Source: a virus (taxonomy: Duplodnaviria; Heunggongvirae; Uroviricota; Caudoviricetes). Taken from it: 4,890 bases of DNA. This document shows positions 197 through 1,318 of this stretch, piece by piece (position 1 is the first letter of the stretch; each line of letters begins with the position of its first letter). The notes under the pieces were generated by a model, which saw nothing but the letters and a program-made list of their open reading frames with translations, did not search any database and had not been told where the DNA came from. The DNA is taken from IMG/VR virus record IMGVR_UViG_2606217107_000013; one strand, written 5' to 3'. A program made the position numbers and the translations under genes.

Positions 197-1318
197 ATGA
201 GCAAGAAATTTACAAAGACTATTCTTTCTTCTGCTGTTGCCGGATTGATGCTGGTGAGTGTTAACTCTTTTGCACAGGTGGTGGCTATTGGTGATTATAA
301 GATAATTGTTGATGATACTACTGAGTCGGCCAGAATTGTTCATGCGAAAGATAATAAAGATATTTTTACTGGGGTTATAAATATTAAAAATGGCATGATT
401 ACTACCGTCAATACTGACGAGGTTAATGCTGCTATTGATCGTTTTTCAAAAAAGAACCCAGATTTGGTTAAAGACAAATCTGTACTGCAGATGGTGGCTC
501 AAGTTGCAGGTGAAGCGGCCCGTTATAGCATATCTTTACCACCTGAGTTCCCTTCTATTACAGAAGGAAATTTACAGAATATAACCGTAGCTGATATTGA
601 AAAAATAAAATCTAATATTGATGGTGTTAATTCAGTTATCACCAGTAAAACTGCGAAAGATTACAATATTGCTATCAGTAACGGCATGAGTTCAGAAGCT
701 GCGCTAACAGCGGCTAAAGATGGTAATGGAGCGCTGTTACAGGAATTCAACCGTCTCGGCACAAATGTAAATGACCTGAAAAATGCCACTACATTTGCCC
801 TTGATGCCGATGGCAATATCACGCTGGATGAAAATCAGGGAAGCGGTGAGCGTTATTCTGTAAAACAAACAGTCGCAGATATTAAGGCTGACACTACTGT
901 CTACCAGAATAAAGATGGCAGCTATACACTTGACCAGAGCGCACCGGGCAACGTTCGTGTGAATGATGCTGTTGTCAGCCTCGACAACAGAACCCGCAGT
1001 AACACCCAGGCTATCCAGAATCACTCCCGCCAGCTGCAGGAGCATAACGCACGCCTGAACAGCCAGCAGCGCCAGATTCGTGAAAACCACGAAGAAATGA
1101 AACGTGCGGCAGCACAGAGTGCGGCGCTGTCCGGTCTGTTCCAGCCGTACAGTGTGGGTAAATTCAACGCCACGGCAGCCCTGGGTGGTTACAGTGACAA
1201 ACAGGCTGTGGCTGTTGGTGTGGGTTACCGCTTCAACGAGCAGACCGCAGCCAAAGCAGGTATTGCAGCCAGCGACGGTGATGTTTCCTACAACGTAGGT
1301 GTGAACTTCGAGTTTTAA
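197..1318 (+). CDS. Trimeric autotransporter adhesin (YadA/Eib-like) with Sec signal peptide, coiled-coil stalk and C-terminal YadA-type beta-barrel anchor
   Basis: 373-aa ORF. N-terminus [28 protein letters not shown] has a basic n-region, hydrophobic core and a likely SFA|Q cleavage site. A Q/R/N-rich heptad-like stalk ([46 protein letters not shown]) precedes the C-terminal [60 protein letters not shown]. That tail matches, from memory, the YadA anchor pattern (LFQPYGVGKVNFTAGVGGYR...GYRVNE...KAGVA...YN..FNIEW) including the terminal aromatic-x-aromatic. The antisense 229-aa ORF is Cys/His-rich and looks spurious. Confidence 0.88.

What the first reader, a model, noticed from the sequence alone, without database searches (positions are those of the whole stretch)
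197..1318. Compositional mosaic inside the adhesin gene: AT-rich passenger fused to a GC-richer stalk and anchor
By eye, the first roughly 700-750 nt of the ORF are strongly AT-rich (runs such as AATAAAGATATTTTTACTGGGGTTATAAATATTAAAAATGG), while the last 350-400 nt (stalk and anchor) are clearly GC-richer (CAGCTGCAGGAGCATAACGCACGCCTGAACAGCCAGCAGCGCCAG). The shift falls around 900-960. That pattern suggests modular recombination, with a conserved anchor/stalk cassette joined to a foreign or fast-evolving head domain. The AT-rich head plus AT-rich promoter region is also the kind of sequence H-NS typically silences.
Basis: seen in the sequence. Interest (0 to 1): 0.55.

Follow-up and report, generated by a model that had tools for sequence, protein, structure and literature searches.

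The report
Mosaic prophage adhesin gene, AT-rich head
A surface-adhesin gene carried by an E. coli prophage has an AT-rich, highly variable outer part that is swapped in blocks between prophages, joined to a conserved membrane-anchor part of normal composition; the pattern is real, but it is a family-wide and largely expected feature of these adhesins.

Summary
Inside ORF 197..1318, GC rises from 0.39 to 0.56 and GC3 from 0.31 to 0.62. The maximum-likelihood breakpoint is at 931, and no shuffle out of 1000 reached its likelihood ratio. The step survives a control for amino-acid composition.

The gene is a 373-aa trimeric autotransporter adhesin. It sits in the classic eib locus of E. coli lambdoid prophages: DUF4376/ORF-191, adhesin, ORF-156, ORF-60, L0124-like gene, tail fibre.

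Modular recombination is strongly supported. Other E. coli prophages share blocks at 99-100% nucleotide identity that abut blocks at 53-66%. Junctions recur near 243-265, 528, 598, 757, 795/806, 915 and 1016. The 915/916 junction coincides with the GC step.

Three qualifications apply:
- The AT-head/GC-tail pattern occurs in all but one of the 18 other alleles examined, eibA, eibD and eibE among them, so it is not a fusion peculiar to this gene.
- The head is not demonstrably foreign. Every named homologue is from E. coli or Shigella, whereas only the last ~110 residues have relatives in other genera.
- The conserved upstream region and signal peptide are also AT-rich.

H-NS silencing is plausible but untested.

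Verdict: a new, uncharacterised allele of a known kind, of moderate interest.

The parts
1..196 (+). AT-rich upstream region (GC 0.36). It is the conserved 5' homology arm and holds a promoter-like site at 151-179.
   Evidence: 96-99% identical in many E. coli prophages and in the eibA locus. The promoter-like match is no more frequent than chance. The AT-rich tract extends about 400-600 nt further upstream in L020 and L001.
197..274 (+). Signal peptide (aa 1-26, [27 protein letters not shown]). Codons 1-22 still belong to the conserved 5' arm.
   Evidence: Read from the sequence and from alignment A1. The 5' junctions of the variable region fall at 243-265. No signal-peptide predictor was run.
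263..598 (+). Passenger module A (aa 23-134): N-terminal beta domain followed by helices. It is the most variable and most AT-rich module (GC 0.369, GC3 0.264).
   Evidence: 26 types at 90% identity among 51 representative proteins. AF2 pLDDT is about 85-90, with strands at 27-70 and helices from 73. No Pfam or PDB match. An internal junction lies at about 528.
599..796 (+). Passenger module B (aa 135-200), helical (GC 0.379, GC3 0.292).
   Evidence: 99-100% nucleotide identity with L026, L013 and L028, whose module A is only 54-66% identical. 12 types.
797..916 (+). Minicassette C1 (aa 201-240), the first saddle-like beta element (GC 0.442, GC3 0.375).
   Evidence: 56-57% identity in L024, L028 and L019 between flanks that are 99-100% identical. 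Two major forms occur, 25 and 20 of 51 proteins.
917..1015 (+). Module C2 (aa 241-273), the second saddle-like element ([30 protein letters not shown]). The GC-rich, conserved 3' block starts here (GC 0.556, GC3 0.606).
   Evidence: The maximum-likelihood GC changepoint is at 931 and the LLR at 915 is nearly maximal. The 915/916 junction recurs. The element aligns with the EibD saddle but lacks the 'SGRTDRIDYAVGAI' segment.
1016..1138 (+). Coiled-coil stalk base (aa 274-314), Eib type (GC 0.593, GC3 0.650).
   Evidence: phmmer match to the EibD fragment 2xzr, E = 8e-8. AF2 predicts a helix at 255-314. Only 2 types among 51 proteins.
1139..1318 (+). YadA-type beta-barrel membrane anchor (aa 315-373) plus the stop codon (GC 0.542, GC3 0.576).
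   Evidence: Pfam PF03895, E = 4.4e-16. Match to YadA 2lme, E = 1.7e-18. Against eibE: 98% amino-acid identity, dS 0.84, dN/dS 0.01.
1343..1376 (+). Intrinsic terminator of the adhesin gene (ACGGCAG...CTGCCGT followed by TTTT).
   Evidence: Terminator-like hit at 1352-1368. A stem-loop is annotated at the same place after eibA, eibD and eibE.
1407..1937 (+). ORF-156 homologue (176 aa here). Function is unknown, and it always follows eib-type genes.
   Evidence: phrog_6585, E = 1e-96, no Pfam match. Annotated ORF-156 in the eib loci. The C-terminal extension comes from a 1-nt deletion near 1873.
1876..2058 (+). ORF-60 homologue, a small hydrophobic protein.
   Evidence: Positional and sequence match to orf-60D and orf-60A.
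2239..3864 (+). L0124-like virion/tail protein of 933W-type phages. The phage backbone resumes at about 2025.
   Evidence: phrog_511, E = 2.8e-271. Homology to 933W and other Stx phages starts at 2025.
3861..4890 (+). Phage tail tip fibre gene, cut by the end of the contig.
   Evidence: Pfam PF09327 and phrog_496.

Best explanation
The ORF is an uncharacterised allele of the prophage-borne eib-type trimeric autotransporter adhesins of E. coli. It is part of a cargo unit (AT-rich regulatory region, adhesin, terminator, ORF-156, ORF-60) inserted among the tail genes of a 933W-like prophage.

The gene has two compartments:
- 5' compartment (upstream region, signal peptide and passenger modules, up to about 916). 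It is AT-rich, with GC3 about 0.3. Apart from its conserved 5' end, it is built of at least four modules that exist in many deeply diverged allelic types.
- 3' compartment (second saddle element, coiled-coil stalk base and beta-barrel anchor). It has host-like composition, with GC3 about 0.6. It is almost invariant in protein sequence and runs on into the conserved downstream genes.

Shown: homologous recombination between eib-type loci has exchanged passenger modules. The conserved 5' and 3' compartments could serve as long homology arms, and short conserved islands inside the passenger as internal crossover points. The compositional step coincides with the most commonly used 3' junction (915/916).

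Inferred:
- The exchange takes place between prophages that share a cell. Other genomes carry up to 6 copies by my search and 1-8 by PMC13534694.
- Exchange diversifies the exposed, antigenic or adhesive part while keeping the export machinery fixed.
- The protein does not bind IgG Fc, because the EibD segment containing Y388 is absent.
- The AT-rich tract around the start codon is a likely H-NS target.

Unresolved: why the two compartments keep different synonymous-site composition.
For: Composition:
- GC and GC3 changepoint at 931, beyond all 1000 shuffles.
- The step holds after the amino-acid control.

Identity of the gene:
- YadA_anchor domain.
- Matches to the YadA anchor and the EibD coiled coil.
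- Same gene order as the annotated eibA, eibD and eibE loci and the same prophage context.
- Stx phages such as 933W match only from 2025 onward, so 1-2024 is cargo.

Mosaicism at DNA level:
- L024: 17-795 at 100%, 796-915 at 56%, 916-1431 at 99%.
- L026: 182-597 at 66%, 598-1360 at 100%.
- L028: 266-528 at 54%, 529-795 at 100%, 796-915 at 57%, 916 onward at 99%.
- L001: 244-806 at 53%, 807 onward at 99%.
- L006: 242-1016 at 53%, 1017 onward at 100%.

Mosaicism at protein level, identity by segment:
- P0002: 100/100/100/80/100/100.
- P0010: 77/50/100/100/100/100.
- P0013: 100/60/100/80/100/100.
- P0026: 81/35/67/100/100/100.

Other support:
- Shared blocks have dS = 0-0.05, and adjacent unshared blocks have dS > 0.8 or saturated.
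- Allelic types per module fall 26, 12, 5, 5, 2, 2 from the N- to the C-terminus.
- The same AT-head/GC-tail pattern occurs in all but one of the 18 other alleles examined, including eibA, eibD and eibE.
- It is absent from related adhesin genes of other genera, where head and tail GC3 differ by at most 0.09.
- The exact protein lies on 6 contigs from several assemblies, so this is not an assembly chimera.
- Multi-copy status is reported in PMC13534694 and seen.
Against: - No recombination event was observed directly. Exchange within one cell, as opposed to exchange during co-infection or transfer, is inferred.
- Only one strict four-combination quartet was found among module types (B x C1), because the sample is small and was selected by similarity to this head.
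- The GC changepoint is broad (666-944), so its coincidence with junction 915/916 is compatible with the data but not exclusive.
- The cause of the two compositional regimes is unresolved. Polarised substitutions give GC>AT 17 vs AT>GC 7 in the head and 14 vs 12 in the tail, which do not differ significantly (Fisher p = 0.26).
- Adhesin function, trimer formation and lack of IgG binding are all predictions.
Confidence: 0.85

Rival explanations
1. A single chimeric origin. An AT-rich head from a low-GC donor organism was fused once to a native GC-normal stalk/anchor, and the step is the scar of that event.
For: - Head GC3 of 0.29 is far below both host and prophage-backbone expectations.
- The anchor has relatives in many genera, while no relative of the head was found outside E. 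coli and Shigella.
Against: - No head homologue turned up outside E. coli/Shigella among the 120 listed hits (207 in all) or in the one-genome-per-species scan.
- Unrelated passenger types at the same locus (eibA, eibD, eibE and the other alleles, one excepted) are all AT-rich with GC-rich tails. One fusion cannot explain that.
- The conserved upstream region and signal peptide are AT-rich too.
- Head alleles are saturated at synonymous sites yet remain at GC3 of about 0.3. Recent substitutions run towards AT, not towards host composition: 17 vs 7, which is weak evidence.
Confidence: 0.12
2. Process-driven compartments. The two parts have the same history but different substitution regimes.

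- The head and regulatory region are kept or driven AT-rich, either by AT-biased mutation under weak synonymous constraint or by selection for H-NS-mediated silencing.
- The 3' arm is kept GC-rich by strong purifying selection, or by GC-biased gene conversion, because it recombines most often.

This rival complements the best explanation. It addresses why the step persists, not whether modules are exchanged.
For: - The pattern is family-wide and specific to this locus.
- Allelic diversity and GC3 change in parallel along the gene.
- Tail substitutions are balanced (14 vs 12, implied equilibrium GC 0.52). Head substitutions are AT-skewed (17 vs 7, implied equilibrium about 0.2).
- The anchor has dN/dS of 0.01 at dS 0.84.
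- H-NS represses other E. coli autotransporter genes, including the trimeric UpaG (statement in PMC5012682).
Against: - Head and tail spectra do not differ significantly (Fisher p = 0.26).
- Both parts lie on one transcript, so expression-linked codon selection cannot differ between them.
- GC-biased gene conversion in bacteria is debated (my own knowledge).
- The H-NS consensus is not enriched.
Confidence: 0.4
3. No recombination. The step merely reflects amino-acid composition (a head rich in Asn, Ile, Asp, Lys and Thr, and a tail rich in Ala, Gly, Gln and Arg) plus a gradient of evolutionary rate.
For: - Amino-acid usage does differ between head and tail.
- In related adhesin genes of other genera the tail often has somewhat higher total GC.
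- Diversity is graded along the gene.
Against: - GC3 deviates by z = -6.9 or -4.8 from the expectation given the amino acids actually used.
- Asn codons are AAT 17: AAC 4 in the head and 2: 10 in the tail.
- Other genera show no GC3 step.
- Blocks with dS = 0 sit next to blocks with saturated dS, which no rate gradient can produce.
Confidence: 0.03
4. A dedicated diversification machine (a diversity-generating retroelement, a shufflon or invertase, or a silent-cassette gene-conversion system) generates the head variability.
For: - Variability is sharply bounded.
- There is a 120-nt minicassette with two main forms.
Against: - No template repeat and no inverted repeat of note in 1-1500.
- No reverse transcriptase or invertase among the called genes of the loci.
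- Variant blocks differ at all four bases and by indels, not in an adenine-specific way.
Confidence: 0.03

Closest known systems
Eib immunoglobulin-binding proteins of E. coli prophages (EibA, C, D, E, F, G; AF151091, AF151674-6; EibD structures 2xqh and 2xzr)
   Same: - Same locus and gene order: ORF-191/DUF4376, adhesin, stem-loop, ORF-156, ORF-60, L0124-like.
- Same kind of signal peptide.
- The stalk base and anchor are homologous: 98% amino-acid identity with EibE over the anchor.
- The 5' arm is 96.5% identical to that of eibA, and the 3' arm is 94% identical to that of eibD.
- Same AT-rich passenger and GC-rich tail.
   Different: - The passenger is only 20-45% identical.
- No YadA-like beta-roll head or neck was detected.
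- The segment 'SGRTDRIDYAVGAI', which contains EibD Y388 (reported as critical for IgG Fc binding in PMC13534694), is absent. IgG binding is therefore not expected.
Cla and Yal lineages of EibG-like adhesins (Kotaka et al. 2026, PMC13534694)
   Same: - E. coli trimeric autotransporter adhesins related to EibG that lack the IgG-binding residues.
- A saddle-like element is present.
- There are 1-8 paralogues per genome, and the paper stresses modular organisation.
- Its strain JNEC-KY204 carries two copies of a close allele of this gene (L001 and L012).
   Different: - The paper says Cla and Yal loci have genomic contexts distinct from the Eib loci, whereas this gene sits in the canonical Eib context.
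- Strain JNEC-KY208 gave only one megablast match, at its 508-aa adhesin gene in an eib-type locus, which is presumably eibG.
YadA of Yersinia, the prototype trimeric autotransporter
   Same: A C-terminal 4-stranded anchor (2lme, E = 1.7e-18), a coiled-coil stalk and an N-terminal signal peptide.
   Different: No YadA head, neck or stalk repeats. YadA is plasmid-borne, not prophage-borne.
Modular allelic variation in other trimeric autotransporters (Moraxella UspA1/A2/A2H, Neisseria NadA, Bartonella BadA) and mosaic phage tail-fibre genes
   Same: A conserved anchor with cassette-like exchange of passenger modules. This rests on my own knowledge and on the statement in PMC13534694 that these adhesins undergo domain shuffling and recombination. 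Moraxella and Neisseria anchors are 53-66% identical to this one.
   Different: Their genes show no head/tail step in GC3.

Membership tests
Trimeric autotransporter adhesin (type Vc secretion) | C-terminal YadA-like membrane anchor domain | tested here: met
   PF03895 at aa 315-373, E = 4.4e-16, 59 bits against a cut-off of 22.7. YadA anchor 2lme, E = 1.7e-18.
Trimeric autotransporter adhesin (type Vc secretion) | Coiled-coil stalk directly before the anchor | tested here: met
   AF2 predicts a helix at 255-314. Match to the EibD coiled-coil fragment 2xzr, E = 8e-8.
Trimeric autotransporter adhesin (type Vc secretion) | N-terminal Sec signal peptide | tested here: met
   [27 protein letters not shown], read from the sequence and conserved across alignment A1. 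No dedicated predictor was run.
Trimeric autotransporter adhesin (type Vc secretion) | Obligate homotrimer displayed on the outer membrane | not testable with these tools
   Only a monomer model could be made. The anchor had pLDDT below 50, as expected for a monomer.
Eib (E. coli immunoglobulin-binding) family | Prophage eib locus context (ORF-191/DUF4376, eib, ORF-156, ORF-60) | tested here: met
Eib (E. coli immunoglobulin-binding) family | Eib-type stalk base and anchor sequence | tested here: met
   The last 100 aa differ from EibE at 4 positions and from EibD at about 20. tblastn gives 74% identity to EibE over aa 233-373.
Eib (E. coli immunoglobulin-binding) family | IgG Fc-binding segment of the stalk (EibD ...SGRTDRIDYAVGAI..., including Y388) | tested here: not met
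   The segment is deleted relative to EibD. It is present as a ~50-aa insert in alleles P0009, P0015 and P0060 but not here.
Eib (E. coli immunoglobulin-binding) family | YadA-like left-handed beta-roll head and neck (EibC, D, E, G) | tested here: not met
   No Pfam head, neck or stalk-repeat hit even at E <= 10. AF2 shows a small beta domain plus helices. Foldseek finds no significant PDB match.
Eib (E. coli immunoglobulin-binding) family | Non-immune binding of IgG or IgA | not testable with these tools
   Needs an immunoblot with IgG Fc.
Cla chain-like adhesins (PMC13534694) | Genomic context distinct from the Eib loci | tested here: not met
   This gene lies in the Eib-type context. The paper describes Cla contexts only in words, so the comparison is indirect.
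Cla chain-like adhesins (PMC13534694) | Sequence identity to ClaA or ClaB | not testable with these tools
   Sequences and accessions are not in the held text, and no supplement is held.
Phage moron / cargo gene unit | An insert between backbone genes that is absent from related phages, with its own terminator and atypical composition | tested here: met
   933W-type phages match only from 2025. Terminator at 1343-1376. AT-rich 5' part. The promoter-like site is no better than chance.
H-NS-silenced (xenogeneic) AT-rich island | AT content well above that of the surrounding genome | tested here: met
   GC is 0.33-0.40 over about 1.2 kb, against 0.50-0.55 in the flanks.
H-NS-silenced (xenogeneic) AT-rich island | H-NS occupancy and de-repression in an hns mutant | not testable with these tools
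   No ChIP data were accessible. The consensus TCGATAAATT (<=2 mismatches) gave 4 matches against 4.6 expected, which is uninformative.
Diversity-generating retroelement, shufflon or silent-cassette system | Template or inverted repeats with a linked reverse transcriptase or recombinase | tested here: not met
   Only 14-20-nt chance-level repeats. No such gene in the loci.

The most novel reading that the evidence does not exclude
The eib-type locus acts as a standing cassette-exchange site carried by lambdoid prophages. A fixed export module and a fixed AT-rich regulatory arm bracket a set of passenger modules, with at least 26, 12 and 5 types seen in a small sample. These modules are reassorted among co-resident prophages.

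On this reading the two synonymous-site regimes within one gene are actively maintained. The head stays AT-rich for H-NS silencing or through AT-biased mutation. The 3' arm stays GC-rich through intense purifying selection or GC-biased gene conversion. The intragenic GC3 step would then mark the boundary between an exchangeable part and a fixed part, and could be used to find similar loci.
Probability: 0.3. Interest if true: 0.6.

Novelty: new member of a known kind. Interest (0 to 1): 0.38.

Why it matters
- **Relevance of the family.** Eib-type adhesins contribute to chain-like adherence, serum resistance and virulence of LEE-negative Shiga-toxin-producing E. coli (PMC13534694).
- **Typing and annotation.** This allele shows that the exposed part of these proteins is reassorted in blocks of 120-340 nt around an invariant export module. 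That affects typing, because whole-gene BLAST thresholds will misclassify mosaics. It also affects vaccine or antibody targeting and functional annotation: an 'Eib-like' anchor does not imply IgG binding.
- **A usable marker.** The GC3 step is specific to this locus and coincides with a much-used recombination junction. It offers a simple sequence signature for the boundary between the exchangeable and fixed parts.
- **A test case.** The gene is also a natural case for asking what maintains AT-rich composition in accessory surface genes.

Tried and rejected
- **Chi sites as crossover hot spots.** No GCTGGTGG on either strand of the window. A near-Chi GCTGGTGA sits at 250-257, next to the 5' junction, but it has a mismatch.
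- **Repeats, diversity-generating retroelement or shufflon.** Nothing beyond chance-level 14-20-nt repeats.
- **Rfam families in the long upstream region and the gene.** None at E <= 0.1.
- **H-NS high-affinity consensus.** Not enriched.
- **Fold of the head.** The AF2 monomer is confident for aa 30-200, but Foldseek against the PDB gave no hit with E <= 0.001. The best was EibD 2xqh at E = 0.17. Pfam at E <= 10 gave only a spurious aRib hit.
- **ORF-156 as a LuxR-type regulator.** This was my reading of its C-terminal sequence. Pfam and NCBIfam give no support, so I dropped it.
- **Original eib papers (PMC97405, PMC135156).** Not held in the library. I could not check whether the G+C pattern was noted in 2000-2002.
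- **Global pairwise alignment for mapping breakpoints.** It misplaced some blocks, so I replaced it with BLAST and MAFFT block calls.
- **First singleton-substitution count.** It was contaminated by recombinant blocks, so I repeated it on the first 420 columns.
- **Antisense ORF 737-1426.** Rejected as a gene. It is open only because the GC-rich tail avoids TTA, CTA and TCA codons.
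Full report

Yes. The ORF 197..1318 (373 aa) has GC 0.447, against 0.515 for the rest of the window.

- A single-changepoint likelihood scan puts the break at window 931. GC is 0.388 to the left and 0.561 to the right.
- The same scan on third codon positions also gives 931, with GC3 of 0.314 and 0.617.
- The log-likelihood ratios are 15.3 and 15.8. The maxima over 1000 shuffles were 10.0 and 9.5.

The break is not razor-sharp. Positions 666-944 lie within 2 lnL units of the maximum, and the LLR at 915 is 14.9. 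By module the rise is stepwise:

| Module | GC | GC3 |
|---|---|---|
| 263-598 | 0.369 | 0.264 |
| 599-796 | 0.379 | 0.292 |
| 797-916 | 0.442 | 0.375 |
| 917-1015 | 0.556 | 0.606 |
| 1016-1138 | 0.593 | 0.650 |
| 1139-1315 | 0.542 | 0.576 |

Amino-acid composition differs between the two parts, so I computed the GC3 expected for the amino acids actually used.

- Head (263-916): observed 0.293. It is 0.451 under the usage of 2545 codons from the same prophage's other genes in L020 (z = -4.8).
- Tail (917-1315): observed 0.606, against 0.547 and 0.474 expected.
- Codon choice shows the same split. Asn is AAT 17: AAC 4 in the head and 2: 10 in the tail. Asp is GAT 16: GAC 4 in the head and 2: 4 in the tail. 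The head has five ATA codons and the tail none.

So the head is the compositional anomaly and the tail is host-like.

**2. What is the gene and where does it sit?**

- Pfam finds a YadA_anchor domain at aa 315-373, E = 4.4e-16.
- phmmer against PDB sequences matches the YadA anchor (2lme, E = 1.7e-18). It also matches the EibD coiled-coil fragment at aa 259-305 (2xzr, E = 8e-8).
- The window is a complete 4890-nt contig of an E. coli draft genome (JNMF01000101.1). The identical protein lies on six contigs from several assemblies, so the gene is not an assembly chimera.
- The gene order matches the annotated eibA, eibD and eibE loci of ECOR-9 prophages and many RefSeq prophages. That order is DUF4376/ORF-191, a long AT-rich intergenic region, the adhesin, a terminator, ORF-156, ORF-60, an L0124-like gene and the tail tip fibre gene.
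- Stx phages such as 933W match only from 2025 onward. Window 1-2024 is therefore a cargo unit set into a 933W-like (Sepvirinae) tail region.
- Seen in longer loci, the AT-rich tract is about 1.2 kb. It starts about 400-600 nt upstream of the ATG and ends inside the gene.

**3. Anatomy of the protein**

An AlphaFold2 monomer model built on a 36-sequence alignment has mean pLDDT 68, and 85-90 over aa 30-170. It shows:

- a signal peptide;
- a small beta domain at aa 27-70;
- helices at 73-197;
- two short beta elements, at 200-210 and 234-254, whose sequences resemble the EibD 'saddle' (TTVG..DG.LT....VNDGLVAL);
- one long helix at 255-314;
- the anchor, which is unreliable in a monomer model.

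The head has no Pfam match and no significant PDB fold match.

Relative to EibD, the segment SGRTDRIDYAVGAI is missing. PMC13534694 reports that this segment's Y388 is critical for IgG Fc binding. Some sister alleles (P0009, P0015, P0060) carry it as a ~50-aa insert at exactly that point. I therefore predict that this protein does not bind IgG. That is an inference.

**4. Is it a recombinational mosaic?**

No complete E. coli genome in RefSeq holds the whole gene. 49 genomes hold pieces of it, with a median of 3 and up to 6 places per genome. Block identities to the window at the DNA level are:

| Locus | Block identities to the window |
|---|---|
| L024 | 17-795 at 100%, 796-915 at 56%, 916-1431 at 99% |
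| L026 | 17-162 at 97%, 182-597 at 66%, 598-1360 at 100% |
| L028 | 19-265 at 98%, 266-528 at 54%, 529-795 at 100%, 796-915 at 57%, 916 onward at 99% |
| L001 | 244-806 at 53%, 807 onward at 99% |
| L013 | 602-794 at 99%, flanked by blocks at 62-64% |
| L006 | 242-1016 at 53%, 1017 onward at 100% |

- Junctions recur near 243-265 (within the signal-peptide coding region), 528, 597-601, 757, 795/806, 915/916 and 1016.
- Shared blocks have dS of 0-0.05. Neighbouring unshared blocks have dS above 0.8 or beyond saturation. A gradient of evolutionary rate cannot produce that.
- Proteins show independent assortment of segments. Examples are P0002 at 100/100/100/80/100/100, P0010 at 77/50/100/100/100/100, P0013 at 100/60/100/80/100/100 and P0026 at 81/35/67/100/100/100.
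- Among 51 representative full-length proteins, the number of types at 90% identity falls from the N- to the C-terminus: 26, 12, 5, 5, 2, 2. There are 33 distinct combinations.
- The strict four-combination test was met only once (B x C1). The sample is small and was chosen by similarity to this head.
- I found no Chi site, no repeats of note, and no reverse transcriptase or invertase in the loci. Ordinary homologous recombination at conserved stretches is the economical mechanism.
- The conserved 1-260 region and the conserved 916/1016-4888 region would act as the long arms.
- Co-resident copies are common: 1-8 per strain in PMC13534694, and two identical copies in JNEC-KY204.

**5. How does the compositional step relate to the mosaic?**

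The GC-rich part is essentially the block that almost all alleles share. It starts at 916 in this subfamily and at 1001-1033 in others. The much-used 915/916 junction lies 15 nt from the maximum-likelihood changepoint.

AT-richness is not the same thing as variability, however. The upstream region and signal peptide are 96-99% conserved, yet their GC is 0.36-0.39.

**6. Is the pattern peculiar to this gene?**

No.

- In 13 of the 14 other alleles from E. coli genomes, a changepoint is found with LLR 12-24. Across all 14, head GC3 is 0.29-0.37 and tail GC3 is 0.55-0.62. L009 is the exception, at LLR 4.7.
- eibA, eibD, eibE and PhiR5_1, whose passengers are unrelated or only distantly related, show the same profile.
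- In alleles that carry the extra Eib saddle/IgG segment, the GC-rich part simply extends further 5'.
- By contrast, 15 adhesin genes with related anchors in Edwardsiella, Neisseria, Sutterella, Proteus, Moellerella, Enterobacter, Rouxiella and Moraxella show no step. A sixteenth locus was too short to compare. Head and tail GC3 differ by at most 0.09.

The step is therefore a property of the E. coli eib-type prophage locus. It is not a general property of trimeric autotransporter genes, and it is not a one-off fusion.

**7. Is the head 'foreign'?**

There is no positive evidence for that.

- With residues 26-268 as the query, 207 proteins were found. Every named protein among the 120 listed is from E. 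coli or Shigella, forming a continuum from 100% down to 48% identity.
- With residues 269-373 as the query, relatives include Citrobacter, Pasteurella, Neisseria, Salmonella and Pectobacterium.
- A scan of one genome for each of 185,579 species returned 33 loci. All matched only residues >=253.
- A caveat applies. That scan was seeded on two C-terminal motifs, so a head attached to a very different anchor would have been missed.
- Head alleles are saturated at synonymous sites yet all sit at GC3 of about 0.3.
- In a small polarised sample of recent point substitutions, the head shows GC>AT 17 vs AT>GC 7 (p = 0.06 against equality; implied equilibrium GC about 0.2). The tail shows 14 vs 12 (implied equilibrium about 0.52).
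- The two spectra do not differ significantly (Fisher p = 0.26).

So there is no sign that the head is drifting towards host composition. The data are too few to tell apart three options: a persistent AT-biased regime, selection for AT-richness, or membership of an AT-rich mobile gene pool.

The anchor is under extreme purifying selection. Against eibE it has 98% amino-acid identity, dS 0.84 and dN/dS 0.01. Head modules give dN/dS of about 0.3-0.6, but on saturated dS, so I make no claim of positive selection.

**8. H-NS**

- The 1.2-kb tract of 60-67% AT centred on the start codon is the kind of DNA H-NS binds.
- H-NS is reported to repress other E. coli autotransporter genes, including the trimeric UpaG (statement in PMC5012682, citing Totsika et al. 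2012).
- Eib proteins are poorly expressed under standard shaking culture and are induced in static culture (PMC5450701).
- From my own memory of Sandt et al. 2002, which I could not read here, eib genes need the IbrAB activator.
- I found no paper linking H-NS to eib genes.
- The high-affinity consensus is not enriched.

**9. Comparison with what is known, and verdict**

- The gene meets every testable criterion of a trimeric autotransporter adhesin.
- It shares the locus, both flanking arms, the stalk base and the anchor of the Eib family.
- It fails two defining Eib features that I could test: the IgG-binding segment and the YadA-like head. I therefore call it an eib-locus allele rather than an Eib protein.
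- It resembles the recently named Cla proteins in lacking the IgG-binding residues. But it sits in the Eib genomic context, which that paper describes as distinct from the Cla context.
- A conserved C-terminus with a variable N-terminus, multiple prophage-borne paralogues and modular shuffling are all established themes for these adhesins.

This analysis adds four things:
- a nucleotide-level map of the exchange junctions for this allele;
- the observation that diversity and GC3 change in parallel along the gene;
- the demonstration that the synonymous-site step is family-wide but specific to this locus;
- the finding that the anomalous part is the head together with its conserved regulatory arm.

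That makes the finding correct, moderately interesting and not categorically new.

Noticed in passing
window 1857-1874 (within 1407-1937): A 17-nt divergent patch with a 1-nt deletion, relative to L020, L021 and the eibD locus, removes the usual stop codon of ORF-156. The product here is 176 aa instead of 156 and runs into the ORF-60 reading frame.
   Followed up: partly
window 737-1426, minus strand: A 229-aa antisense ORF spans the GC-rich tail. It is in register with the sense codons and stays open only because the sense strand has no TTA, CTA or TCA codon after 737. It is a codon-usage by-product, not a gene.
   Followed up: yes
window 796-915: A 120-nt minicassette (aa 201-240) occurs in two main forms (25 and 20 of 51 representative proteins). 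It is exchanged independently of flanks that are 100% identical.
   Followed up: partly
after window 982 (aa 262); alleles P0009, P0015 and P0060 in alignment A1: Some sister alleles carry a ~50-aa insert with the Eib saddle and the 'GRTDRID.AVG' IgG-binding segment, exactly where this protein has none. IgG binding therefore looks like a present-or-absent cassette within one passenger family.
   Followed up: partly
L015, L026, L064 and L065, compared with L001-L011: The adhesin/ORF-156/ORF-60 trio occurs in two prophage settings. One is between tail genes of 933W-like prophages. The other is at the very end of other lambdoid prophages, next to dinI and host genes such as btsS or yodB. The trio seems to move as a unit.
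   Followed up: no
window 1407-1937 (ORF-156 homologue): This gene always accompanies eib-type adhesin genes (phrog_6585, E = 1e-96), yet has no Pfam or NCBIfam match. Its role, whether regulator, chaperone or something else, is unknown.
   Followed up: partly
whole window; The window is an entire 4890-nt contig, and very many homologues are 'partial' proteins on 1-2 kb contigs. The multi-copy, mosaic locus systematically breaks short-read assemblies, so its diversity is under-sampled in draft genomes.
   Followed up: no
window 250-257: GCTGGTGA, one mismatch from the Chi sequence GCTGGTGG, lies right at the recurrent 5' junction (243-265). No perfect Chi site exists in the window.
   Followed up: no
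L001 positions 1-1700 (tail fibre gene upstream of the locus): The upstream tail fibre gene reaches GC 0.60-0.70, far above the rest of the prophage. It is a second strong compositional anomaly in the same region.
   Followed up: no
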